A stretch of 59,098 nt of DNA, filler included, from 4 parts of 4 records of this genome joined end to end with filler, not necessarily neighbours in it; one strand, 5' to 3'. Numbered from the whole stretch's first letter, positions 13,007-36,568 are shown. Made by a program: numbers and translations. Notes: generated by a model from the letters alone, not told the origin.

Positions 13007-13106
13007 NNNNNNNNNNNNNNNNNNNNNNNNNNNNNNNNNNNNNNNNNNNNTTAATTAATTAANNNNNNNNNNNNNNNNNNNNNNNNNNNNNNNNNNNNNN
13101 NNNNNN
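13007..13106. other. Artificial contig linker
   Basis: N run with central TTAATTAATTAA (stops in all frames). Confidence 0.98.
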
Positions 13107-13235
13107 GGTATCGAGATAGGTGTCGCCGAGTGGGTTCCTTTCTTTTAATGATAGTTTTCGAACCTGTTCCTCGATGGAGGAAATTTTCTCGTTAATGGAG
13201 AGAAACATTTTTAGGGTTGCGTTGTCTTTTTCCAT
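13107..13235 (-). CDS. Excisionase-like HTH (HTH_17 type) protein, N-terminal part, truncated; not in ORF track
   Basis: MEKDNATLKMFLSINEKISSIEEQVRKLSLKERNPLGDTYLDT: coiled-coil then (W/Y)LD, which typically precedes the HTH in Bacteroidota xis-like proteins; lies downstream of RteC. Confidence 0.55.
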
Positions 13236-13325
13236 GTCTTTAACAATTAATGATCAGTGATCAGTTTGGTTATTATTAATCGAATCCGAGATTTAAAATT
13301 CCTTTTCTCCTCAAGCCGGAAGGCT

Positions 13326-13493
13326 CTTCCTTTCTGCATTGATCAGAAAGGAAGCAAAGAATCTAGGGTGTGTAAGCCCAAACTTCTTCTACTTGCAAAC
13401 TTTAAGTGCGGCGGAGTGATCTTCTCATTCTTCGAAGCTTCTCCGTCTTTCTAAAAGTTTTCTGCAGATAAGTAGCTTGTCCTTCCAATACCC
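13326..13493. other. Structured non-coding element (two hairpins)
   Basis: CTTCCTTTCTG/CAGAAAGGAAG stem (13326-13354) plus a long imperfect stem CTACTT..AAACTTT..GGCGGAG / CTCCGTC..AAAGTTT..AAGTAG (13389-13475). Confidence 0.55.
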
Positions 13494-13851
13494 ATCAAAC
13501 CAGATGTAACTTTAGATTTAAATATTGTATTTTCTCAAAACATTACTTTCTAAAAAACATCGTCATAATTCTCAAAAAAACAATTTCAACTCTTGATTGA
13601 CATTACTGATGCAAGTTTAAGGCAGGTGATTGGAAAAAACATCCAGCTTGGATGATGTTTTTTTGTGGTGGAATTGTACACAAAGAGTCTGTATTGCTTT
13701 GTTTGTGCAACATTCAGACTCTTTTATTTTTTCTATTTATTTTGCTATTTGCTTTGCTTTTGTTCTGTTTGCTTCGATGAGGATTCAAGGTGGATACAGG
13801 TTGAATGTAAATTGAAGAAAAAGAATCTTCTCTATTGATCCTAACCGATTG

Positions 13852-14850
13852 CTATTTATCGCTTATCGAGTATTCCAATTCTTCTTTCAGTTTGTCCAAA
13901 AATGAAGTCGGACTGTTTCGCCCAGTCAGTTTTGCTATTCTACTGTCAGCATCCTGAATGGGTTCCATATTTAAAAACTCCTCAAATTTCTGGACGAGTT
14001 CTTTTCTACTTAATGGATCTCCAGAATTCATTTTAACCGCTTTGCATCTATGAAGTGCTGCAATCAATTCCAAAAAATCTGTTTTAGACTTATTCCAAGT
14101 CAAACCCGAAGAACTTCTTTTTTTCGAATCGTTTCCATGTAGTAGCATTTCCTTATATGTTTCTAGTTTGGATTCTAAAAACAGATTGACCGGTGAATCG
14201 TATAAATCGATGCCCTTCATCTTCAGGTCTCTTGCCAAGTTTCGTTTTTCTTCCTTCAGATATTCTATCTTATCGAAAGCGGATGTAATTTCACGCAATT
14301 CATCCTTCATTTTCATTAGTACAGGGAAGCATTCCTTAAAATCATCTTTCCAGGATTTGTTCTCCCGTTTGTTTTTCTTTCCTGATTTTTTCCTGGACGA
14401 ACTATTGTTCTCTCGCTGGCAAGTTTTAATCACATCAATTGAATCGATCACAACTTCATATTGAGCATGCAAGTATTTCTCCAAATGGATGAACTCTTCA
14501 GGACCTGTATTGATACAACTAATCTCATTATTGGATTTGGATACCATTTTGATATTAGGTCCGGAATAATTTGATTGGGTATTGGATTGCAACTGAGACT
14601 TTATCAGTTCAAATATTCGGATTGTAGTCGCCAAATACATTTGAACTTCTCCCTGAGTTTTTAAAATTCTCAGATTCGTTCTCAATTCATTTACAAAGTC
14701 GATCTGAAGTTTATTTAAGTGATACTTGTAGCCATTTAAACAAATATGCTCGTTAAAGTATACTTTGTAATCTTTTTCTTCTTTTTCAAATTGCACTATA
14801 GCTTTTGAAAGTTCGGTTGTTAGTAGTAGAAAACTATTTTCGGTTATCAT
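13852..14850 (-). CDS. RteC-domain protein
   Basis: C-terminal LTWNKSKTDFLELIAALH...SRKELVQKFEEFLNM......KLTGRNSPTSFLDKL matches the RteC domain pattern. Confidence 0.75.
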   Translation of the reverse strand: MITENSFLLLTTELSKAIVQFEKEEKDYKVYFNEHICLNGYKYHLNKLQIDFVNELRTNLRILKTQGEVQMYLATTIRIFELIKSQLQSNTQSNYSGPNIKMVSKSNNEISCINTGPEEFIHLEKYLHAQYEVVIDSIDVIKTCQRENNSSSRKKSGKKNKRENKSWKDDFKECFPVLMKMKDELREITSAFDKIEYLKEEKRNLARDLKMKGIDLYDSPVNLFLESKLETYKEMLLHGNDSKKRSSSGLTWNKSKTDFLELIAALHRCKAVKMNSGDPLSRKELVQKFEEFLNMEPIQDADSRIAKLTGRNSPTSFLDKLKEELEYSISDK

Positions 14851-14896
14851 ACGAAAAGTTATTTCCTTACTAATTTAGAAAAGATTAAACAGTATG

Positions 14897-14904
14897 CAAA
14901 TTTA
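14897..14904 (-). promoter_or_regulatory. Bacteroidota -7 element (TAAATTTG) for the RteC-domain gene
   Basis: TAnnTTTG consensus about 47 nt upstream of ATG 14850. Confidence 0.6.
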
Positions 14905-14927
14905 ATTTGTTAAAATAAACAATTGAT

Positions 14928-14987
14928 TTAAAGTGAAATAATTTTATTTAACTCATCTAAAACAGATTTTTCAAATGATTCTAGATT
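14928..14987 (-). pseudogene. Orphan, diverged integrase 3'-end remnant (copy 3)
   Basis: Translates NLESFEKSVLDELNKIISL* versus YLDSFENEVLDAANRLITL* of the integrase at 24348-24444; same length to the stop. Confidence 0.75.
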
Positions 14988-15022
14988 AAAAATTTAGGAA
15001 GCTTAAATAAGCTTCCTAAATT
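14988..15022 (-). terminator. Intrinsic terminator of the 597-aa gene
   Basis: AATTTAGGAAGCTTA/TAAGCTTCCTAAATT inverted repeat followed by Ts on the minus strand. Confidence 0.8.
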
Positions 15023-15033
15023 AAATGTTTAAT

Positions 15034-16827
15034 TTATTTCGTGAATATTCTTTTGGCTTCACTTTCATTATTACCGGTAAGGTTATAGGTTACACCGACA
15101 AAAAAGCCTATTTTAAAAGGGTCATTCTTACGGTACAAAATTTCATTAGGTAATTCTCCAATTGGTTTAGCTATACCTTCTTTGTCACTATATTCAGGAT
15201 CGATTCTATTCACCTGTCCACCAACTATTCCAGAACTTAGAATTATTCTTTCACTTTTACCAAATATCAAGGATCCGCCTAAGTAATAATTAATTTTTTC
15301 TGAATTCGTTGCGGCACCAAAGTTTCCTGCAAGTTTGACATTTGCAGTAGATCTCTTGTAAACATTAAACAGAACACCAACATAGGGCATAAACTTATCG
15401 GAAGTCCTTACTTTCTTAATTGCAGTACTGTCGGGTGTAACCGCCTCGAACCTATACTCATCGTCCTTTAATCCTATATTGAATAACATCCCTGCACTAA
15501 TATCAATCTTAATTCCTCCTTCAATTGGTAAAGAATAATTTTTTGAAATTGGCTGAGTAACTGTATTGAATTGATTATCACGAGGAGTCGCTTCCATACT
15601 ATAAAATATATTATCAGCCTTAGGATTTATGTCTGTTGTCTGAAAACATACAGTCCAATTTTTAATGTTAATTTGCTCATATAGCTTTTGAATTTCATTA
15701 ACAAAATCATACTGTTTATTAAAATTTAAGTTTATATGGAATTGTTTCAATTTGGCATATGTTGCACTAACCTCTTTGTCTGAATCTATTTTTTCATAGG
15801 CTTTATCTACTGCCATAAATTTATCCTTAACATCCTGTATTCTTTCATTACAACCATTTACAACTTCACCAATTGCGCATTCTTTACCAAAAAATAGTTT
15901 GGTCAAATTATCTCTTTCCTTCAGAATTGTATTAAACTTTTTACTGGAGTACAATAAAAATTGAAGCTGAGAATAGTAAGATTTTAAATCTGATAATTTA
16001 TCAACAGCACTTCTATATTCATTAACTGATTCAATAAAAAATGTTTTAAACAAATAGGTATCATCCTCTTGTGAAGCTAAAATTTCCTTCTCCAAATTTA
16101 AAATTTCAATAGAATCAGAAAGATTCTCAATTTGATCTTTAAGTAACGCATGATCAGATTTAAGAGCTTTAAATGTTTCTCCAAAATCTTCCGAAGGATA
16201 TTTTAATGATAATCTAATTTTAAGTTCTGAAAGTGTATCAGCTTTTATAGATTTCGCATCTAGATAATTATTCAGTTCTAATACTTGTAACTCTAACGAT
16301 TTCAGCTTCCTCTGCTTAAATTTTAGTTTAATTTCTTTTGTTTTTATTTCATTAACCTTTGCTTCAGTAACTTGCTTTATTTGTGTTTTATCTATGGCGA
16401 TATCATTGATATTTTTAAGCAACACTTCATTGAGATTAAAATCACTTACTGGATAAAACATGTTGTGCTTTTTCTCTGTACTTTCTTTACTAATCCAATC
16501 TTTCTGTACTTCGTTTAATGAAACATCATACAAAAAGGTATTGATGTTCTCAAATTTTAAAAGAATCTCATCGTTGTAGTGTGCTACAGAAGGGAGCTGT
16601 TTCATTTTTTCATTAACTGTTATCACAAGCGTATCTCTTAAGCCTTGATACTTTCGAGATCTACGATCCAGTTTCCGCAGTTTCTTTTGCTCTTTAATCA
16701 ATTTTCTTTTATCCCTCCATTCTTTTTTAGTCATTAGGGAAGAGTTCTGAGAACTGACAACTAGTGTACTAATAAATGTACACATCAATACAGTTAATAC
16801 CAATTTTTGGATTGTTGTAAATTTCAT
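15034..16827 (-). CDS. Hypothetical secreted/outer-membrane protein (signal peptide, basic segment, coiled coil, C-terminal beta-rich domain)
   Basis: 597-aa ORF with hydrophobic N-terminus, heptad-rich middle and alternating beta strands ending GFFVGVTYNL. Confidence 0.75.
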   Translation of the reverse strand: MKFTTIQKLVLTVLMCTFISTLVVSSQNSSLMTKKEWRDKRKLIKEQKKLRKLDRRSRKYQGLRDTLVITVNEKMKQLPSVAHYNDEILLKFENINTFLYDVSLNEVQKDWISKESTEKKHNMFYPVSDFNLNEVLLKNINDIAIDKTQIKQVTEAKVNEIKTKEIKLKFKQRKLKSLELQVLELNNYLDAKSIKADTLSELKIRLSLKYPSEDFGETFKALKSDHALLKDQIENLSDSIEILNLEKEILASQEDDTYLFKTFFIESVNEYRSAVDKLSDLKSYYSQLQFLLYSSKKFNTILKERDNLTKLFFGKECAIGEVVNGCNERIQDVKDKFMAVDKAYEKIDSDKEVSATYAKLKQFHINLNFNKQYDFVNEIQKLYEQINIKNWTVCFQTTDINPKADNIFYSMEATPRDNQFNTVTQPISKNYSLPIEGGIKIDISAGMLFNIGLKDDEYRFEAVTPDSTAIKKVRTSDKFMPYVGVLFNVYKRSTANVKLAGNFGAATNSEKINYYLGGSLIFGKSERIILSSGIVGGQVNRIDPEYSDKEGIAKPIGELPNEILYRKNDPFKIGFFVGVTYNLTGNNESEAKRIFTK

Positions 16828-16929
16828 AAAATAAACTTTTGTAAGTAGTTAATAATATTATTTTAATTAATAAACATACAATTTACGTCAATCTACTCGA
16901 TCTAAAAAAAATATTTTTAATGTTAATAA

Positions 16930-17004
16930 CTATAGGGTAATCAACCTGTTTGCAGCATCTAAAACCTCATTTTCGAAACTGTCGAGGTAGATTTGAGTTG
17001 TTTT
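16930..17004 (-). pseudogene. Orphan integrase 3'-end copy (copy 2)
   Basis: Encodes KTTQIYLDSFENEVLDAANRLITL*, identical in protein to 24348-24422, with 9 synonymous changes and a different stop codon. Confidence 0.93.
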
Positions 17005-17166
17005 GTGTTTTAACTTCCTGGAAAATGCGCTTCACATTCCCCATGCATCATTGCATCTCAGACTTCTTGCATAGCAATTTCCATCATATCAATCAGAATA
17101 AAACTTATCTGCGTTAGTACTCCTACCATACCAAGGTTTACATCGTTTAAAAGTGAATGCAAATCA

Positions 17167-19854
17167 TTACAAATAACTCTCCGATATGTAGCCAATTATC
17201 CCATCAACCCAAACTCTATAGTAAATTCCTTCGGACTTGTTTAATATATATACGACCTCACCTTTTTTCTTATTTTTTAAAACTTTAGAATTGACATTGG
17301 CTTCCTCTCGTATGGTAGCCTCCATTTTTAATGTTGCTTTGTTCAAATATGAATTGGGAATCTTTTTTACTTTATTTGAATTAATTTTTGGAGCTATCTT
17401 AGTTGTATTGCTGTTTTTAGCAATTCTAAAACCTCTATACCAGGATCTGCTTGTACTACTGGATACTGAAGCTCTTTTTATCACCTCACATCCATTTTTT
17501 GAAAAATAGAAACTTCCACCTCTAATCACTCTATATTTGCCATCCAAAGGACCTTTCGGATCAAATACAGGACTATTGGCATAGTAATCACTATCGTACC
17601 AATCTGAACAAAACTCACTCACATTACCACTCATATCATAAATTCCAAGAGTATTTGATTTTTTTCGTCCAACTACATGAATCTCTTTCTCATAACTTCC
17701 AGCGTACCATGCCACATCTACAACAACATCACTACCTGCATATTTATAAGGATCTTTATGAATTCCTCCTTTAGCGGCATATTCCCATTCTGCTTCTGTT
17801 GGAAGTCTGCCACCAGCCCATTGGCAAAATTCCTTTGCATCATTCCAACTCACATGTACAACAGGTTTATTTCCGAATATCTTATATCGTTTTCCATTCT
17901 CATCAAACCTCCAATTCATTCCATTTATTTTCTTTCCATACTTCCCTTTATTTCTAAAATATGAAAAACCGGATTTTTCGGCTTCTGTTACATAAGAGGT
18001 AGATTTTATAAACTCTGAGAATTGTTTTACTGTAACTTCATATTTTCCAATAAAAAAATCCGATACTTTAACTTTATGAGCCGGCTTCCGATTCAAATCA
18101 TACTTCCCTCCCTCATCGGCTCCCATAATAAACTCCCCTCCTTTAACAGCGATCATATCAATTTTTAATCCTGGTTTTTGTAAAGTATAGTCACAAAACT
18201 CGCTGACATCAAAAGAAAAGCTATTATTACCTGTTTGTGTTATTTGGATTTGCTCAGCCTCTCTTCTTTTGCCATTTATCAATTGAATTTCATGACTCCC
18301 AAAAGAAAGAGTTGAAGTATAAGGTGTTTTTCCTACAATAGCTCCATCAATTCTCAGCTCTGCTCCCTTAGGATTACTGTTAATGGTTACTTTACGACCA
18401 TCTGGTAATTTTTCATTAATCTCAGTTGTTTCATCTTCCTGAATATTAATATTCTTCACAACAGTACCGAATCCGTCCTTGCTTAATTCCACCTGATATT
18501 CACCAACCAGTAGATCACGAATTACATTCGGACTGGTACCTTTTTTTATTCCATTTAGCTTAATGGTAGCATTAAATGGATCTGTTCTAAGGTTTAAAGA
18601 ACCATATTTAGGGCGAAGGTCTAATTGAATATGTTGTACTTCACCTGCTATTAGATTGACTTCTCGCGCTTGCGAATGATGTTTATCAAGACGTGCTTCA
18701 ATGGTGTAGTATCCCTCAACTTGACGTCCCTGGTAAGAGCCATTTCCTACTTTTCCCTTATTGATGTATAGATCAGCCTTGGGATTGGTTATAATCTTAA
18801 GCTCGCCAAAAATGGGCATCAATTCCTGCATCAGTTCTGTTGTTTCATTATTCATTACATTTACTTGAACTGATTTGGGCTGGTACCACTTTCTCTTCAA
18901 TTTAAGAGTGTGCATACCCTTAGCTACTTTTGGGAGCGTACAAGGTGTTTTTTGTTGTAAACGTTTTCCGTCCAAAATAACTTCTGCTCCAGCTGGATTA
19001 CTATTCACTTTCAGACTTCCAAAATCAGCAGACATATCTATATTCAGATTTGTTGTCTGTCCATCATTAACCTGAATTCTCTCACTAACTGACTCATACA
19101 ATTCTTTACGCAAAGTGATTGTATAATCGCCAGATTTCAATCGTTCTGTTTTTGCTGGTGTAATCAAACCTGTTGGTTGCCCATTAATTAAGATTTCTGC
19201 TCCTTTTTCTGGGGTAGAAGAGATGAACGCAAACCCAAAATTGGGTTGCAAGTTCTGTTCAATTATCTGTTTTTCATCTTCAGTAAGACTGAAAACTCCA
19301 GCACTATTGTGATACATTGATTTTTCTATTCGATAATTATAATTCCCCAGCGGCATTAGCTTATCAAAAGGTGTTTGCCCTGCGTATTTATTGTTAATAT
19401 ATACATCAGATCCCGAGGGTGTGGAAGAAATTACCACATATTGCTTAATGGTCTCAATAGCTTCCACTGTGGTAGTTATTCTTCCTGTGATCAATTCCAT
19501 CACATAAACGGTGGCTTCCTTTATTGGTTCTGTATAGATGTAGTTATCTAAAATGCCCAATTTTTGGTGCTTTAAGGTAATCTTTCTTGCTTTGGGAGGT
19601 ACATATACCCAATACTCACCAACTTCATGACTTATCTTAGTAATTCCCAGCATATCACCATCAAATACAAAACCTTTTTCGGTAGTTCGTATCTTAATCA
19701 AAGCACATTTATCTCCATTTTGATCGGTTACAGGAGCTGTGACACGTGCTGTCATGTCATCGGGAACTGAATAAAAAGATTTCACATTGATGTTTTGGGC
19801 TTGCAGCCAAGTAATACTTAAGCATAAAAAGGAAAAGAAAATTATTTTTTTCAT
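17167..19854 (-). CDS. Secreted PEGA-repeat protein with FGE-sulfatase (SUMF1/C-type-lectin fold) domain and C-terminal SH3-like domain
   Basis: Repeated ISSTPSGSDVYIN...GQTP PEGA units; RLPTEAEWEYAA, GIYDMSGNVSEFC, RVIRGGS, GFRI; terminal TIREEANVNSKVL...GYISESYL. Confidence 0.88.
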   Translation of the reverse strand: MKKIIFFSFLCLSITWLQAQNINVKSFYSVPDDMTARVTAPVTDQNGDKCALIKIRTTEKGFVFDGDMLGITKISHEVGEYWVYVPPKARKITLKHQKLGILDNYIYTEPIKEATVYVMELITGRITTTVEAIETIKQYVVISSTPSGSDVYINNKYAGQTPFDKLMPLGNYNYRIEKSMYHNSAGVFSLTEDEKQIIEQNLQPNFGFAFISSTPEKGAEILINGQPTGLITPAKTERLKSGDYTITLRKELYESVSERIQVNDGQTTNLNIDMSADFGSLKVNSNPAGAEVILDGKRLQQKTPCTLPKVAKGMHTLKLKRKWYQPKSVQVNVMNNETTELMQELMPIFGELKIITNPKADLYINKGKVGNGSYQGRQVEGYYTIEARLDKHHSQAREVNLIAGEVQHIQLDLRPKYGSLNLRTDPFNATIKLNGIKKGTSPNVIRDLLVGEYQVELSKDGFGTVVKNINIQEDETTEINEKLPDGRKVTINSNPKGAELRIDGAIVGKTPYTSTLSFGSHEIQLINGKRREAEQIQITQTGNNSFSFDVSEFCDYTLQKPGLKIDMIAVKGGEFIMGADEGGKYDLNRKPAHKVKVSDFFIGKYEVTVKQFSEFIKSTSYVTEAEKSGFSYFRNKGKYGKKINGMNWRFDENGKRYKIFGNKPVVHVSWNDAKEFCQWAGGRLPTEAEWEYAAKGGIHKDPYKYAGSDVVVDVAWYAGSYEKEIHVVGRKKSNTLGIYDMSGNVSEFCSDWYDSDYYANSPVFDPKGPLDGKYRVIRGGSFYFSKNGCEVIKRASVSSSTSRSWYRGFRIAKNSNTTKIAPKINSNKVKKIPNSYLNKATLKMEATIREEANVNSKVLKNKKKGEVVYILNKSEGIYYRVWVDGIIGYISESYL

Positions 19855-20152
19855 AGATGTTGTTAATTATTCATATCGATTAACAAGTCATTAGTATATC
19901 TACTCTGACAAGGCAGCTAATTTAAAACAAAGAAAACGCTCTCAATTGACACTGATTTCATGTTGTCAATTATCTTTAGATAGATTTCTTTCTAAAGGAG
20001 TTTTGAATTCATCAATCGTCAACTGAGAATGAAATTTAATCATCAGTACAAGGCTTTAAATACTTAAATTAACAAAAGCCATGCAGTTAAATATAAACGA
20101 GTTTACGTCAATTCACCTTAACATAAATTAGGGCTTATTATTAAAGGTATTA

Positions 20153-22177
20153 TTATTTAACCATAACAACACGAAAACCACACCAAGGACTACATGCATG
20201 CGTTGGTGATGCACCATTACTTATTGATGGTTCACAATACCAAGAACCATTTACGAATTCCCCTCCTCTTATGCATTTATGTTCCCCATTTTTAGGTCCT
20301 TTAGGATTTTCATATGGACTTTTTTTATAATAATTGTCAAAAACACCAATTGACCAATCACTACAAAACTCCTGAACATTACCACTCATATCGTAAATTC
20401 CAAGTTCATTTGGAAGTTTTAGACCAACTTCGTGAATCTTCCCATTTGAGTTATATCCATACCAACAAACTTCATTTATATCATTTGAACCTGAATATTT
20501 GAAATTCTTCGACTTATTGCCTCCTCTAGCTGCAAATTCCCATTCTGCTTCAGTTGGAAGTCTATATTTTTTATTTGTTTTATCTCCCAACCAATTTGAA
20601 AATGCATTTGCACCGCTCCAAGAAACATTAACTACTGGATAATTTTTAATATTTGTCTCACTAATATTCTTTAAATAAAACTTATTACCATCCCATACAA
20701 AAGGACTTTTTTCATCCAATTCAATAATTACGGTTTCGTTTATTTTTCCATAGCGATTCACATGAGCATCATTTAAAAACAACAAGAATTCTTCATTTGT
20801 TGTTTCATATTTTGACATATAAAAATCACTTACAAATACGTTATGGGGTGGAAATAAATTAGCTGTTTCATAGCTTCCCATTTTAAAACTACCGCCTTTG
20901 ACAAATACCATTTCTTTGCCACTTGGCAGTGTTTCGTTTACCTCTGCGGTTTGTTTTTCACTAATGCTGATCGTTTTTATTACTGTACCATAACCCGCTT
21001 TGCTTAATTTCATAAAATGATCACCTATCAACAAATTGTCAATCGTATTGGGAGTAGTGCCATAACTTTTACCATCTATATTTATGCCAGCACCAAAAGG
21101 TGTTGATATCACATCAACACTTCCAGTTTTAGGGCTAGGTATTAGGCTTATTGTTTGCTTTTGCCCTGCTACAAATTCCAATTGTTTTTTCGCCGATGTA
21201 TGTTTGGCTTTTCTAGCCTCAAAGGAATGCAATCCTGGTAATAATCGCCCGGAATAAGCAGATGTGCCTTTCTTCTCATCGTCGATGTAAATATCGGCAG
21301 AGGGAGAGCTTTCGATAGTCACCTCTGCAAAATTGGGTAACAGTTCTACATCTAAGTGAGTGGTTTCACCATCTTTAATTTCAAAATTCACCGTTTTAGG
21401 CTGAAACATGACTTTTTTAAGTACCACACGGTGCTCTCCACTCAATAAGCTTTCTGATTTGAATGGCGTCTTTTCTGATACTGGTCTGCCATCAATTTCA
21501 AGGCATGCACCACTCTCGGGTGTACTTTTAATGTTTACAAAGCCAAAACTGGGCTTAAGGACTAAATTCACCTCCTCTTTTCCAGATTCTTTAAGCGATA
21601 ACACCCCAGCACTGTTATGATACATCGCTTTTTCCAAACGGTAGTTATAAGTACCCACCTGCATTTTTTTCTGATAAGGAGTGCTGCCCACTAGTTGTTC
21701 GTCGATATACACATCTGCACCATCAGGTGTACTCGAAATAGTAAACCACTGCATAGGAATCTCAACATCCTCAACAATGGTAGTCACCTTCCCAGTGGTA
21801 AGTTCCATTATATAGACAGAAGCTTCTTTTATATTTTCCGTATAGATATAATTATCCAAGCGTCCTAATTTCCCATGTGCGATGCTAATCTTTTTGGCTC
21901 CAAAAGGTACATACACCCATACTTCCGCAACTTTTTGAACTGTTTTTTCTATTCCCATCATGTCTCCTTCAAATGTTAGCCCCATTTGCGTGGTTTTTAT
22001 TTTAATCAACGCACACTTATCACCATTTTGATCGATAATCGGAGCTGTAACACGGGCGGACATGTCATCCGGGGCTGAATGAAAGGATTTTACGGAGATA
22101 TTTTGGGCATTTAATTTCAGGACAACAATGAATAAAAAGAGAAGGATAGAAACAGTATTTTTAATTGACATAGGCAA
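20153..22177 (-). CDS. Secreted PEGA-repeat protein with FGE-sulfatase domain (paralog)
   Basis: Same N-terminus (AQNI.VKSF.S.PDDM.ARVTAP..DQNGDKCALIKI), PEGA units, RLPTEAEWEFAA, GIYDMSGNVQEFC, GFRVV. Confidence 0.88.
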   Translation of the reverse strand: MPMSIKNTVSILLFLFIVVLKLNAQNISVKSFHSAPDDMSARVTAPIIDQNGDKCALIKIKTTQMGLTFEGDMMGIEKTVQKVAEVWVYVPFGAKKISIAHGKLGRLDNYIYTENIKEASVYIMELTTGKVTTIVEDVEIPMQWFTISSTPDGADVYIDEQLVGSTPYQKKMQVGTYNYRLEKAMYHNSAGVLSLKESGKEEVNLVLKPSFGFVNIKSTPESGACLEIDGRPVSEKTPFKSESLLSGEHRVVLKKVMFQPKTVNFEIKDGETTHLDVELLPNFAEVTIESSPSADIYIDDEKKGTSAYSGRLLPGLHSFEARKAKHTSAKKQLEFVAGQKQTISLIPSPKTGSVDVISTPFGAGINIDGKSYGTTPNTIDNLLIGDHFMKLSKAGYGTVIKTISISEKQTAEVNETLPSGKEMVFVKGGSFKMGSYETANLFPPHNVFVSDFYMSKYETTNEEFLLFLNDAHVNRYGKINETVIIELDEKSPFVWDGNKFYLKNISETNIKNYPVVNVSWSGANAFSNWLGDKTNKKYRLPTEAEWEFAARGGNKSKNFKYSGSNDINEVCWYGYNSNGKIHEVGLKLPNELGIYDMSGNVQEFCSDWSIGVFDNYYKKSPYENPKGPKNGEHKCIRGGEFVNGSWYCEPSISNGASPTHACSPWCGFRVVMVK

Positions 22178-22203
22178 CTGAAATTATTTGATTTGAATAG
22201 GTT

Positions 22204-24006
22204 TTAATTGAAATTACTTAAATCGTACAGGTTGTTGTTAGAAGTAATTTTTGGTTGCCAGGTACGAACATGAATAATGGGTTCGTCGGAGTTGTTTAAA
22301 TCAACAATAAGGAACAAATAACCAACATCTCCATAGTTAGATGAAAAGTAATTTTGTTTGATTTGTACTCCAAAAATATCTCCTCCTTTACCCGCTTTTC
22401 TGATATTACTATCTTCAAATTTGATGTTGATATACTCTTTACTACTAAAGGATGATTTCAGATTCCTCAGGTACTGGTATTTGGTTTGACGATTGTATTT
22501 TATGATGCGATTGTTTTTGAAATGATTCAGTTCATTTGGCTTTGTTTTAACCAAGGTACCGGTTATGATGAGAGCATCATCGGAAAATATATTTTCGATG
22601 TAATCCAGTCGTTTTAATGCATAAGCAGTTTTATAGTGCTCCAAAAAGTTAATCAGGATCATTCGATCTCGTTCTTTCCATACTTTTTTAAGTAGAATAT
22701 TGTCCAATGCTGTTTTTGATAATCCAAAGGATAAGACTTCAATCTTTTTATCTTTATTAAAATGAAAAATAATTTCCTCGATAAACTGCTTGTTGTTTGT
22801 TTCAAAATTGAAACACATTGGCACCGATCGACAGATTACTTTGTCTTGATCTTTAATAAATTTTAATTGATAATCACCTATCAATTTTGCATTTCCATAT
22901 CGAATAATCCTGTTGAAAATATCAAATCCCTCAGTTGTAAATTCATTTTTAGCAGTATCATATTGCTTCTCCCGAATGGAATTCAAAACCGACTCAATTA
23001 TTTCTTTGTAAGGATCTGGATTGGCAACTAAAGTATAAGGAGGTATCGATTGAGAATTTAATGTTACTGCCTTTCTTACGTCAGGTATATCTAAAGAAAG
23101 AGTGTAGTAACTATTGCGAAATGGAATTGGGTCGATCTTTGATAGTACATCTTCCAATTCTCTATCAATACGTGCCTCGCCCTCAAAAATATATTCTGCT
23201 TTCACTTTTAGCTTTTTTGCAGTAGAGGCCATGCCGTAAAGTTCAATTAATCCAATACCGTTTCTGGCACTTATTACATTGCTATAATCCATGCCATCCC
23301 AATAGCAATAATCAAAGTTTTCAACGTTTTTATTTTTGTATTTGATATTGAGGGTGTAGGTGCATTCATCATCCTGCTTATCTATATTGGAAATTTGAAT
23401 ATCAAGATCAACAAAAATGTTATTGATCTGTAAAGGTATCCAAGTGGCTAATAATTGACTTTTTTGATTTTGATCCAAAAATTTCATTTCACCACCATTT
23501 GGATGGCTTTTTAAGAGGCTTAATGCCCAATAATAATATCGTAATGCATCCGCTATTTGAGTTTTTTTCAATGCATTTTCTGCATTTAGAATAAAGCCAT
23601 ATATTTTTTCTTCTCTTTCCAAAAAGATTTTTTGAACATCTGCTTTTTTGATGTAGCGAAATATCCTAGCTTCCGGCTCATCTCTCATTACGATTCTTTC
23701 CGTATTTTTAAGAGTCGCACTTGAGTAGGAATTAATTACAGAATTACAAACAATTTTAAAGTCATCACCTTTTCCATTGGTTTGCAATTCCTGCTGAAGT
23801 AGAGAAAATTCGCTTTCTACATGAGTTGAAATCTGAGATATTAGCATGGAAAGAGCTTGCTGGTCTGCATTTTTTAAAGTAATACCATTTCCTTCTCCCC
23901 AAATATAATTGCACCTATCTGCCTTTATTTCATTTATTGATTGTGCTAAAATATTAGCACTACAAATTTTCAAACAAAACAATGCAAGAATCAATATTCT
24001 AATCAT
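22204..24006 (-). CDS. Secreted protein with LPP20-like N-terminus and NTF2-like C-terminal domain
   Basis: Signal peptide; YIWGEG.G.TLK.ADQQALSMLISQIST.VES; C-terminal FLEHYKTAYALKRLDYIENIFSDDALII..HVRTWQ. Family assignment is from recall. Confidence 0.6.
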   Translation of the reverse strand: MIRILILALFCLKICSANILAQSINEIKADRCNYIWGEGNGITLKNADQQALSMLISQISTHVESEFSLLQQELQTNGKGDDFKIVCNSVINSYSSATLKNTERIVMRDEPEARIFRYIKKADVQKIFLEREEKIYGFILNAENALKKTQIADALRYYYWALSLLKSHPNGGEMKFLDQNQKSQLLATWIPLQINNIFVDLDIQISNIDKQDDECTYTLNIKYKNKNVENFDYCYWDGMDYSNVISARNGIGLIELYGMASTAKKLKVKAEYIFEGEARIDRELEDVLSKIDPIPFRNSYYTLSLDIPDVRKAVTLNSQSIPPYTLVANPDPYKEIIESVLNSIREKQYDTAKNEFTTEGFDIFNRIIRYGNAKLIGDYQLKFIKDQDKVICRSVPMCFNFETNNKQFIEEIIFHFNKDKKIEVLSFGLSKTALDNILLKKVWKERDRMILINFLEHYKTAYALKRLDYIENIFSDDALIITGTLVKTKPNELNHFKNNRIIKYNRQTKYQYLRNLKSSFSSKEYINIKFEDSNIRKAGKGGDIFGVQIKQNYFSSNYGDVGYLFLIVDLNNSDEPIIHVRTWQPKITSNNNLYDLSNFN

Positions 24007-24347
24007 TCCTATTTTTTATTTATTAACATAATCGGAAATCTAACCTATTACTATGGATTTAAATCAATATTCCTTGTAAATTCTTATTAATATGCTTTTA
24101 ACATATGCAGCAATTCCGAAACTAACAAAATCTTAAATAGTTTACTATGCAAGTAAAACTTACTTATTAAAATAAACAGTTTATTGTTCAAACAACACAA
24201 TGAGATTATTAAATGAATACCATAAAACTCAATTATACTAACAAAGTTCAATGCCACATTATGCCTATAGAACCTAATAGATACAAACAAGCAATTTGAT
24301 TTTTATATGATGAACTAATATTCAATTTTACTAATCTAAAATTTATC

Positions 24348-24444
24348 TCAAAGCGTAATCAGTCTGTTTGCAGCATCTAAAACCTCATTCTCAAAACTAT
24401 CGAGATAGATTTGGGTTGTTTTTTCAGTAGTGTGCCCAAGACCT
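24348..24444 (-). CDS. Tyrosine recombinase/integrase, C-terminal end (truncated by contig break; not in ORF track)
   Basis: GLGHTTEKTTQIYLDSFENEVLDAANRLITL*: box II LGH...TxxY catalytic motif. Confidence 0.88.
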
Positions 24445-24544
24445 NNNNNNNNNNNNNNNNNNNNNNNNNNNNNNNNNNNNNNNNNNNNTTAATTAATTAA
24501 NNNNNNNNNNNNNNNNNNNNNNNNNNNNNNNNNNNNNNNNNNNN
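24445..24544. other. Artificial contig linker
   Basis: N run with TTAATTAATTAA. Confidence 0.98.
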
Positions 24545-36468: not shown

Positions 36469-36568
36469 NNNNNNNNNNNNNNNNNNNNNNNNNNNNNNNN
36501 NNNNNNNNNNNNTTAATTAATTAANNNNNNNNNNNNNNNNNNNNNNNNNNNNNNNNNNNNNNNNNNNN
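36469..36568. other. Artificial contig linker
   Basis: N run with TTAATTAATTAA. Confidence 0.98.

What the first reader, a model, noticed from the sequence alone, without database searches (positions are those of the whole stretch)
14928..24444. Cargo array punctuated by repeated integrase 3' ends: candidate gene-accretion system at the integrase's own C-terminus
Seen in sequence, reading the minus strand: integrase end (LGHTTEKTTQIYLDSFENEVLDAANRLITL*, 24348-24444); cargo block A (three secreted-protein genes); orphan copy KTTQIYLDSFENEVLDAANRLITL* (16930-17004); cargo block B (597-aa gene plus terminator); older orphan copy NLESFEKSVLDELNKIISL* (14928-14987); RteC gene; excisionase-like gene. 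Both orphans are co-oriented, start at or just before the catalytic Tyr codon and end at the stop. Divergence increases with distance from the intact integrase. Known: some tyrosine integrases have att sites inside their own gene, and integrons add cassettes next to the integrase in age order. Inference: each incoming unit supplied a fresh integrase 3' end plus cargo and displaced the old end downstream, building an age-ordered, integron-like array without attC hairpins. Candidate mechanisms are site-specific recombination near the Tyr codon or homology-anchored illegitimate recombination.
Basis: partly seen in the sequence, partly recalled or inferred. Interest (0 to 1): 0.9.

Follow-up and report, generated by a model that had tools for sequence, protein, structure and literature searches.

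The report
Integrase-tail relics flanking captured cargo
Short leftover copies of an integrase gene's last codons mark a spot, between the integrase and its neighbouring regulator gene, where a family of marine Bacteroidota mobile elements has repeatedly taken up foreign genes; they look like recombination scars rather than a working integron-like machine.

Summary
Contig 13107-24444 holds an integrase 3' end (cut by a scaffold linker, not a natural end) and two co-oriented orphan copies, followed by an RteC-like gene and the start of an excisionase-like gene.

It recurs. In related Marinifilaceae elements the integrase is normally followed directly by the RteC-like gene. Several loci instead carry unrelated cargo there (two-component genes, a 52-kb PUL-like block, an AbiE pair, the same PEGA/FGE-sulfatase operon), followed by an integrase-tail relic.

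The integron-like reading is only partly supported:
- Relic 5' ends do not cluster at KTTQIY. They lie 16 to about 195 nt before the stop, within or just upstream of the integrase's most conserved stretch.
- There are no hairpins and no shared end motifs.
- Relics decay.
- In two informative loci the upstream integrase is a different lineage from the relic.
- Relatives of the first cargo gene sit mostly at chromosomal sites away from any tail.

All 10 differing codons between tail and first orphan are synonymous, so the two tails come from different functional integrases.

Best reading (about 0.5): scars of inter-element recombination anchored in that conserved patch. Integrase-catalysed cassette capture is not excluded (about 0.13).

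The parts
24348..24444 (-). T1: the last 31 codons plus stop of an IntDOT-like tyrosine integrase. It is cut on its 5' side by the contig end.
   Evidence: It is 100% identical over 31 aa to 400-aa integrases (PF17293+PF13102+PF00589) of Marinifilum and Ancylomarina.
24445..24544 (.). Scaffold linker (N44, TTAATTAATTAA, N44). It is an artificial join to an unrelated contig with GC 0.54.
22204..24006 (-). Cargo A gene 1, 600 aa, with a weak LPP20-like match.
   Evidence: It is 87% aa identical to the gene in the same position in G064.
20153..22177 (-). Cargo A gene 2, 674 aa, with PEGA repeats and an FGE-sulfatase domain.
17167..19854 (-). Cargo A gene 3, 895 aa, with five PEGA repeats, an FGE-sulfatase domain and a weak SH3 match.
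   Evidence: It is 87% aa identical to its G064 counterpart.
16930..17004 (-). T2: orphan integrase tail, 24 codons plus stop. It is aa-identical to T1 but differs at 11 nt.
15034..16827 (-). Cargo B, a 597-aa protein with no Pfam or PADLOC family. It has almost no relatives in 97 Marinifilaceae genomes.
14991..15022 (-). Terminator-like hairpin after cargo B. It abuts T3.
   Evidence: (z -3.9)
14928..14987 (-). T3: decayed orphan tail of another tail type, 19 codons plus stop.
13852..14850 (-). RteC-like gene, 332 aa.
   Evidence: PF09357, 43.4 bits against a cut-off of 25.3. Relatives stand next to the integrase in related loci.
13107..13235 (-). First 43 codons of the HTH_17 (excisionase-like) backbone gene, cut by the contig end.
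   Evidence: full-length relatives carry PF12728

Best explanation
The contig is the left part of an integrative element of a family found in Marinifilaceae.

**Element layout.** The order is host flank, integrase, RteC-like regulator, HTH_17 excisionase-like gene, two conserved genes, then variable cargo. The short junction between the integrase stop codon and the RteC-like gene is a recurrent slot for extra cargo.

**What the orphan tails are.** They are relics of earlier integrase genes. Each was left when DNA carrying another integrase 3' end (in some cases a whole other integrase) plus adjacent, chromosome-type genes was joined upstream. One junction of that event fell inside the last 150-175 nt of the resident integrase.

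**Why there.** That stretch is the integrase's longest run of high conservation. DNA just upstream and downstream of it is much less alike between elements. The junction is therefore most likely set by homology, that is, recombination anchored in this patch with an illegitimate second joint. It is less likely to be a dedicated cassette site.

**Afterwards.** Relics are not maintained and decay.

**Shown:** the anatomy, the recurrence, variable breakpoints confined to or just upstream of the conserved block, purely synonymous divergence between T1 and T2, decay of relics, and linkage of the relic to the RteC lineage.

**Inferred:** the kind of recombination and the order of events.
For: **Canonical layout**
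- The integrase is followed within about 50-450 nt by the RteC-like gene in G003C83, G004C75, G008C9, G011C5, G068C1, G050C1 and G011C2, and in L007, L008 and L017.
- Host genes fabF and rnc lie directly upstream of the integrase in three species.

**Cargo in the slot**
- WIN: cargo A, T2, cargo B, T3.
- G002C1 (L004): a 3.7-kb two-component block plus a 144-nt relic, 90% identical in nt to the integrase's own tail.
- G002C2: 52 kb, then a decayed relic and a broken RteC-like gene.
- G064C1: the same cargo A (87% aa) followed by only about 20 nt of tail.
- G001C1: an AbiEi/AbiEii pair followed by about 16 nt of tail.
- L148: an FGE-sulfatase gene, then a relic, then the RteC-like gene.

**Breakpoints**
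- 12 of 13 isolated 3' fragments start at integrase position 332 or later, out of 400.
- Mean pairwise nt identity of 12 integrase genes is 72-83% over the last 150 nt. It is 46-64% just upstream and about 40% after the stop.

**Origin and fate of the relics**
- T1 and T2 differ at 10 codons, all synonymous. In L004, 10 differing codons are synonymous and 3 are not, 2 of the 3 at the 5' edge.
- The G002C2, G058C1 and T3 relics are decayed.
- The relic follows the RteC lineage in WIN T3, G001C1 and G002C2 (79% nt over 750 nt with G004C75).

**Supporting context**
- The RteC-like gene is only 26-60% identical between elements whose integrase and backbone genes are 80-99% identical. Recombination at these borders is therefore frequent.
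- Cargo A gene 1 has full-length homologues at nine places in eight genomes, and only one is next to a tail.
- The G050 junction shows a 7-of-11 microhomology.
Against: - No direct evidence for the recombination mechanism exists. Homology-anchored illegitimate recombination is inferred from where the breakpoints lie.
- Three relics with different upstream neighbours (G002C1, G002C2, G058C1) start within about 10 nt of each other, 140-150 nt before the stop. That could instead mean a preferred site.
- Other conserved patches in the integrase (about -480 to -420 and -390 to -360) have produced no relics.
- The AbiE module is collinear with a tail on its left in three genomes that carry different RteC-like genes. 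This resembles a 'tail plus cargo' cassette.
- The intact reading frame of T2 could also be explained by selection on reuse.
- The sample of independent events is small (about 10-13), and some may share ancestry.
Confidence: 0.5

Rival explanations
1. The integrase itself recombines integrase-less circles ('tail plus cargo') into a site within its own last codons. This builds an integron-like, age-ordered array whose orphan tails act as cassette recombination sites.
For: - Direct, co-oriented repeats bracket each cargo block.
- Cargo blocks carry no mobility genes.
- A T1-like tail is joined directly to the RteC leader in run X2: one contig, depth 5, 74 nt on the shorter side.
- The AbiE module keeps a tail on its left in three genomes.
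- Three relics share a boundary within about 10 nt despite different neighbours.
- T2 keeps a perfect reading frame.
Against: - Breakpoints are spread over 16 to about 195 nt.
- No invariant core is seen at synonymous sites in ten aligned tail sequences (seven integrase tails and three orphans).
- There are no hairpins at tails or spacers, z -1.1 to +0.7.
- No motif is shared between tails and the region upstream of the integrase, where the element's own att site should lie.
- The upstream integrase is a different lineage from the relic in G002C2 and G001C1.
- Relics decay.
- 0 of 74 more distant family loci carry an orphan.
- No T1-T2 joint appears in the source run, but only contigs were read, and they drop rare forms.
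Confidence: 0.13
2. Independent elements integrated in tandem or nearby. Ordinary deletions then removed backbones and integrase bodies, and the tails are what happened to be left. The conserved patch plays no part.
For: - G050 shows nested or tandem, partly decayed element copies. There is a 199-nt tail repeat at 96.5% identity, 0.9-kb repeats, and a partial second backbone.
- The source organism carries several related elements: depth at the HTH_17 end is about 8 times that of the contig, and a second contig begins with a tail-like end.
- Frameshifted or 5'-truncated integrase pseudogenes also occur (G019, G026, G011C2, L154, L180).
- Tandem accretion followed by decay is documented for other integrative elements (PMC5704250, passages read).
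Against: - Random deletion ends should fall anywhere in the 1.2-kb gene, yet 12 of 13 isolated fragments keep only the last 68 codons or fewer. By my arithmetic the chance is about 1e-8 if ends are uniform and events independent.
- No backbone genes lie between the tails in WIN, L004 or L148.
- No 5' integrase fragments lie upstream of the intact integrases.
Confidence: 0.2
3. The orphan tails are kept because they work, for example as part of the promoter or operator of the RteC-like gene, or as a small C-terminal peptide that modulates the integrase.
For: - The relic is always directly upstream of the leader of the RteC-like gene.
- The L004 relic starts with an in-frame ATG.
- The leader after the stop is conserved between several elements.
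Against: - T2 is followed by cargo B, not by the RteC-like gene, and has no in-frame start codon.
- Relics vary from 16 to about 195 nt and decay.
- No sigma-70-like promoter lies in or next to T3. That scan does not cover Bacteroidota promoter types.
Confidence: 0.05
4. Assembly artefact or chance similarity.
For: T1 lies at a contig end inside a repeated sequence. Several metagenome contigs also break inside the tail.
Against: - T1 and T2 differ at 11 of 75 nt, so they are not a k-mer overlap.
- A second assembly of the source run gives the same 11.3-kb contig.
- The same architecture occurs in other genomes.
- HMM E-values are 2e-17 and 1e-4.
Confidence: 0.02

Closest known systems
Tandem accretion of integrative elements and CIMEs (ICESt1/ICESt3 type), as reviewed in PMC5704250 (passages read)
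   Same: Repeated copies of the 3' end of one gene separate units that lack their own integrase and transfer genes. Units of different origin accumulate side by side.
   Different: There the repeated piece is the 3' end of a host target gene and is a defined att site. Here it is the 3' end of the element's own integrase, its boundaries vary, and site-specific recombination at it has not been shown.
Integrons
   Same: Cargo accumulates next to a tyrosine recombinase gene in one orientation.
   Different: No attC-like folded sites. The integrase is of the IntDOT-like type (PF17293+PF13102+PF00589). Blocks hold one to many genes with their own upstream regions. No shared cassette ends were found.
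SSV-type ('suicidal') integrases of archaea (PMC7253208 abstract and PMC8371274 listing)
   Same: A recombination junction lies inside the integrase's own reading frame.
   Different: SSV-type genes are split into two halves at the two ends of the integrated element. Here the full-length integrases sit next to host genes, and no N-terminal fragments were found.
CTnDOT-type Bacteroidota integrative elements (regulation described in PMC3809561; search listing only)
   Same: An IntDOT-like integrase, an RteC-family gene and HTH_17 excisionase-like genes are present.
   Different: Here the RteC-like gene stands directly after the integrase and is hypervariable (26-60% aa). Conjugation genes were not looked for. 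That CTnDOT lacks integrase-tail relics is my recollection, not a test.
Homology-facilitated illegitimate recombination (term seen in the search listing; its properties are recalled, not read)
   Same: A single short homologous anchor lets adjacent foreign DNA be joined, with the second joint at a microhomology.
   Different: It is described for natural transformation in the laboratory. Here it is only inferred from breakpoint positions and from one junction.

Membership tests
Integron | Cassettes end in attC sites that fold as imperfect hairpins in single-stranded DNA. | tested here: not met
   Tails and spacers fold no better than shuffles, z -1.1 to +0.7. Only the cargo B terminator stands out, z -3.9.
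Integron | IntI-type integrase next to attI. | tested here: not met
   Full-length relatives with the identical tail carry PF17293+PF13102+PF00589, the IntDOT-like architecture. The IntI-specific insertion was not examined.
Tandem accretion / CIME | Units are bounded by direct repeats of the 3' end of the target gene. | tested here: met
   T1, T2 and T3 are co-oriented and bound cargo A and B. The same holds in L004 and G002C2.
Tandem accretion / CIME | The repeats are att sites with a common core at which the integrase excises and integrates. | tested here: inconclusive
   Boundaries vary from 16 to about 195 nt and no invariant core was seen. One contig in X2 lacks the array. No activity test was possible.
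SSV-type integrase | Integration splits the integrase gene into N- and C-terminal parts at the two ends of the element. | tested here: not met
   Intact 400-aa genes lie directly after host fabF-rnc. No N-terminal fragments were found in the loci examined.
CTnDOT-like Bacteroidota integrative element | IntDOT-family integrase, RteC-family regulator and excisionase-type HTH genes. | tested here: met
   In the window itself only the integrase tail and the first 43 codons of the HTH_17 gene are present.
CTnDOT-like Bacteroidota integrative element | Conjugation or mobilisation genes and defined element ends. | not tested
   The backbone beyond the fifth gene was not annotated.
Homology-facilitated illegitimate recombination | One-sided homologous anchor next to non-homologous DNA. 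| tested here: met
   The last 150 nt show 72-83% mean identity, against 46-64% upstream and about 40% downstream.
Homology-facilitated illegitimate recombination | Short microhomology at the illegitimate joint. | tested here: inconclusive
   Only the G050 junction could be compared with both parental sequences. It shows 7 of 11 matching bases.

The most novel reading that the evidence does not exclude
The conserved last 50-60 codons of this integrase family double as a recombination platform. The integrase, which may have relaxed site preference, captures and releases integrase-less DNA circles that carry a copy of its own tail. Each captured block restores the reading frame and pushes the old tail downstream. 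That would be a Bacteroidota counterpart of the integron, working without attC sites.
Probability: 0.13. Interest if true: 0.85.

Novelty: new variant of a known kind. Interest (0 to 1): 0.45.

Why it matters
If the relics are scars of patch-anchored recombination, they give a readable record of how chromosome-type operons (secreted PEGA/FGE-sulfatase proteins, two-component systems, PUL-like blocks, an AbiE pair) are loaded onto mobile elements of marine Bacteroidota. They also mark one junction, integrase stop to RteC-like gene, as a hotspot that can be searched for in other genomes.

If the integrase itself makes these joints, this would be a new cassette-capture system. Either way, the hypervariable RteC-like gene between conserved flanks is a target for work on how co-resident elements keep their regulation apart.

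Tried and rejected
**Searches that failed or gave nothing**
- Searching the window's own genome: none is held.
- The RteC-like protein as a single query in genome contigs: 168 pattern matches, none confirmed.
- PADLOC: 0 hits for the four cargo proteins and the RteC-like protein.
- tRNA genes as integration targets: 0 in seven loci.
- Shared words between the region upstream of the integrase and the tail: nothing consistent.
- A second tail copy in 50 metagenome loci: none. Most of those contigs are short.

**SSV-like model**
I considered an element that starts at the tail and ends with the integrase body. I rejected it because the integrase sits directly after host fabF-rnc, and because no integrase follows the solo relics.

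**G050**
Reading G050 as one element flanked by tail repeats did not hold. The region is better described as nested or tandem decayed copies.

**Sequencing runs**
- No contig of the source run joins T1 to T2 or T3. Contigs cannot show rare forms.
- Runs X3 and X4 gave only joints with 21-nt sides, which I disregard.
- Parts of the contig without cover in X2-X4 are not evidence of absence.


Full report
**1. The observation**

The window is not one piece of DNA. It is four contigs joined by N44-TTAATTAATTAA-N44 linkers, with GC 0.44, 0.33, 0.54 and 0.36. The finding lies wholly in the second contig, 13107-24444.

On the minus strand the contig reads as follows:
- It starts with the last 31 codons and stop of an integrase (T1, stop at 24348-24350).
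- Three genes follow: a 600-aa protein with a weak LPP20-like match, and two proteins with PEGA repeats and an FGE-sulfatase domain.
- Then an orphan tail, T2, at 16930-17004.
- Then a 597-aa gene of no known family, with a terminator-like hairpin.
- Then a second orphan, T3, at 14928-14987.
- Then an RteC-like gene (PF09357, E 4e-11).
- Finally the first 43 codons of an HTH_17-type gene.

A tail HMM built from related integrases scores the three copies at E 2e-24, 2e-17 and 1e-4. The only other hit in the window is at E 30.

So the description is correct, with two caveats. The 'integrase end' is an assembly break.

**2. Family and canonical layout**

The T1 tail is 100% identical to the C-terminus of 400-aa integrases with the IntDOT-like domain set PF17293+PF13102+PF00589. 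They come from Marinifilum, Ancylomarina and related MAGs.

These proteins are only 40-80% identical overall, but their last 50 or so residues are nearly invariant.

In related genomes the canonical order is integrase, RteC-like gene, HTH_17 gene, then two conserved genes of unknown family, then variable genes. In three species the genes directly upstream of the integrase are fabF and rnc. The integrase therefore sits at the left border of an ordinary integrated element and reads inward.

The integrase is followed within about 50-450 nt by the RteC-like gene in seven close-clade loci: G003C83, G004C75, G008C9, G011C5, G068C1, G050C1 and G011C2. The same holds in three more distant loci, L007, L008 and L017.

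**3. Recurrence of cargo plus relic**

| Locus | Cargo between integrase and RteC-like gene | Tail relic |
|---|---|---|
| L004 (= G002C1) | 3.7 kb: two response regulators and a TPR histidine kinase | 144 nt, 90% nt identity to its own tail |
| G002C2 | 52 kb: three ~2,510-aa paralogues, SusC/SusD-like pairs | decayed, then a frameshifted RteC-like gene |
| G064C1 | same cargo A as the window (87% aa) | about 20 nt |
| G001C1 | AbiEi/AbiEii pair | about 16 nt |
| G008C12 | AbiEi/AbiEii pair | none detected |
| G051C1 | same AbiE module | relic is on its left; no integrase body |
| L148 (metagenome) | FGE-sulfatase/T9SS-type gene and terminator | about 170 nt, then RteC-like and HTH_17 genes |

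Solo relics occur in G058C1, G050C1, G026, G027, L173-175 and L184.

In the survey of 97 Marinifilaceae genomes, 20 tail matches had E of 1e-19 or better. Four of them lie in open frames under 100 aa.

Outside this clade I found none. No orphan turned up in 74 more distant loci with the tail HMM. When each of 80 loci was searched with its own tail, only L004 had one.

**4. What the relics tell**

(a) *Origin.* T1 and T2 differ at 11 of 75 nt in 10 codons, and all 10 changes are synonymous. In L004, 10 differing codons are synonymous and 3 are not, 2 of the 3 at the 5' edge. The two copies therefore diverged as parts of working integrases and came together recently. This is not an in-place duplication that drifted.

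(b) *Decay.* The G002C2 relic has a frameshift. The G058C1 relic has many replacements. T3 has 5 of 19 changes against its nearest tail type.

(c) *Breakpoints.* They differ between relics:
- about 16-22 nt before the stop: G001C1, G064C1
- about 60 nt: T3
- 75 nt: T2
- about 87 nt: G051
- 102 nt: G050
- about 105 nt: L173-175
- 140-150 nt: G002C1, G002C2, G058C1
- about 170 nt: L148
- about 186-195 nt in more distant clades: G026, G027, L184

Of 13 isolated 3' fragments, 12 start at position 332 or later of 400. The exception is the G011C2 pseudogene, which starts at position 165.

(d) *The conserved patch.* The last 150 nt is the integrase's longest run of high conservation, with 72-83% mean pairwise nt identity. 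Identity is 46-64% just upstream and about 40% after the stop.

(e) *Lineage.* The relic goes with the RteC lineage in three of four informative loci.
- T3 is of the tail type carried by the integrase of G068C1, whose RteC-like protein is the closest to the window's, at 54%.
- The G001C1 trace matches the tail of G011C2, whose RteC-like protein is 79% identical, and not G001C1's own tail.
- The G002C2 relic, leader and RteC remnant are collinear with G004C75, at 79% nt over 750 nt.
- In L004 the evidence is weak and points the other way. The integrase's own tail is as close to the orthologue G011C2 as the integrase body is (87.5% against 87.6% nt), while the relic is at 82.6%.

(f) *The upstream integrase.* In G002C2 and G001C1 it is a different lineage from the one the relic belongs to, at 50% and 63% aa. 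Either whole integrase genes were exchanged, or later swaps occurred.

(g) *Frequent swaps.* Swaps at these borders are frequent in any case. The RteC-like gene is 26-60% identical between elements whose integrase (84-96%) and backbone genes (80-99%) are conserved.

(h) *Nature of the cargo.* It looks chromosomal. Cargo A gene 1 has full-length homologues at nine places in eight genomes, and only the G064 copy lies next to a tail. Cargo B has one weak relative in 97 genomes. PADLOC finds nothing.

(i) *No cassette signals.* No hairpins occur at tails or spacers. Cargo ends share no similarity. Nothing links the tail to the region upstream of the integrase.

**5. Sequencing runs**

Only contigs were available.

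The source run X1 gives one contig over 13188-24444 with no differences, at depth about 1,257. A second X1 contig starts with a tail 90% like T1 and reaches an HTH_17-like end. Depth at the HTH_17 end of the window's contig is about eight times higher. The organism therefore carries several related elements, and the contig ends at repeats.

No X1 contig joins T1 to T2 or T3, but contigs drop rare forms.

Run X2 comes from another study. One contig there (depth 5, 74 nt on the shorter side) joins 24348 directly to 14919. That is a T1-like tail on the RteC leader, without the 9,428-nt array. X2 also holds pieces of cargo A at 98-100% identity and of the RteC-like gene at 98%. It holds nothing of cargo B.

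This is a hint of presence/absence variation in a close relative. It does not show which state came first.

**6. Explanation**

I read the locus as a cargo slot at the integrase/RteC border of a Marinifilaceae element family, and the orphan tails as scars.

The confinement of breakpoints to the one conserved patch, their spread within it, the absence of any core or folded site, the decay of relics and the chromosomal nature of the cargo all point the same way. They favour recombination guided by that patch with an illegitimate second joint. One junction that could be compared with both parents shows a 7-of-11 microhomology.

The shared boundary of three relics, the tail-plus-AbiE module and the X2 joint fit it.

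Plain tandem accretion with random deletions explains G050. It does not explain why relics are never longer than the conserved block.

**7. Comparison with what is known, and novelty**

The closest known pattern is tandem accretion with CIMEs, where repeated 3' ends of a host target gene separate decayed units (PMC5704250, passages). Here the repeated piece is the integrase's own end, and no fixed att core is seen.

It is not an integron: there is no attC-like fold, and the integrase is of another type.

It is not SSV-like: the integrase gene is not split (abstracts and listing).

My four literature searches (and the passages) turned up no description of integrase-tail relics at an integrase/RteC junction. 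Those searches were narrow and cover only the held library. Supplementary files were not consulted.

I rate it a new variant of a known kind, of moderate interest.

Noticed in passing
window 13007-13106, 24445-24544, 36469-36568: The window is four contigs joined by N44-TTAATTAATTAA-N44 linkers. Their GC is 0.44, 0.33, 0.54 and 0.36, so neighbouring parts probably come from different organisms or replicons.
   Followed up: partly
window 13852-14850; L004 15130-16113; related loci: The RteC-like gene is hypervariable (26-60% aa) between elements whose integrase (84-96%) and downstream HTH_17 and backbone genes (80-99%) are conserved. It looks like a swapped or diversifying specificity module.
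   Followed up: partly
L001 11263-12993; G008:C12; G051:C1: An AbiEi (DUF6088) / AbiEii toxin-antitoxin pair sits in the same integrase/RteC slot in three genomes. In each it is collinear with an integrase tail on its left.
   Followed up: partly
G002:C2 713040-764932 (L090-L093): The 52-kb block between the integrase and its relic holds three paralogous ~2,510-aa proteins, each followed by a 150-aa gene. It also holds two sigma/anti-sigma/SusC/SusD-like sets. Part of it is syntenic with G009:C17.
   Followed up: no
G050:C1 about 22-122 kb (L119, L120, L135, L139, L140): Nested or tandem element copies: a 199-nt tail repeat (96.5%), 0.9-kb repeats (98%) before the integrase and after the element, and a 365-nt repeat (90%) that abuts the solo relic.
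   Followed up: partly
L148 3-1190: The gene in front of this relic is again an FGE-sulfatase-domain protein, here with a T9SS-type C-terminal sorting region. It is the same kind of cargo as in the window.
   Followed up: no
L001 2588-2725: A degenerate tail-like stretch (nhmmer E 9e-7) lies 8.4 kb upstream of the integrase, on the same strand.
   Followed up: no
window 13107-13484: In the source run the depth here is about 8 times that of the rest of the contig. The organism or sample therefore holds many related HTH_17 ends, meaning several related elements.
   Followed up: no
L146, L153, L155 (contig starts): Several metagenome contigs begin inside the integrase tail, as the window's contig does. 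The conserved patch acts as an assembly-breaking repeat.
   Followed up: no
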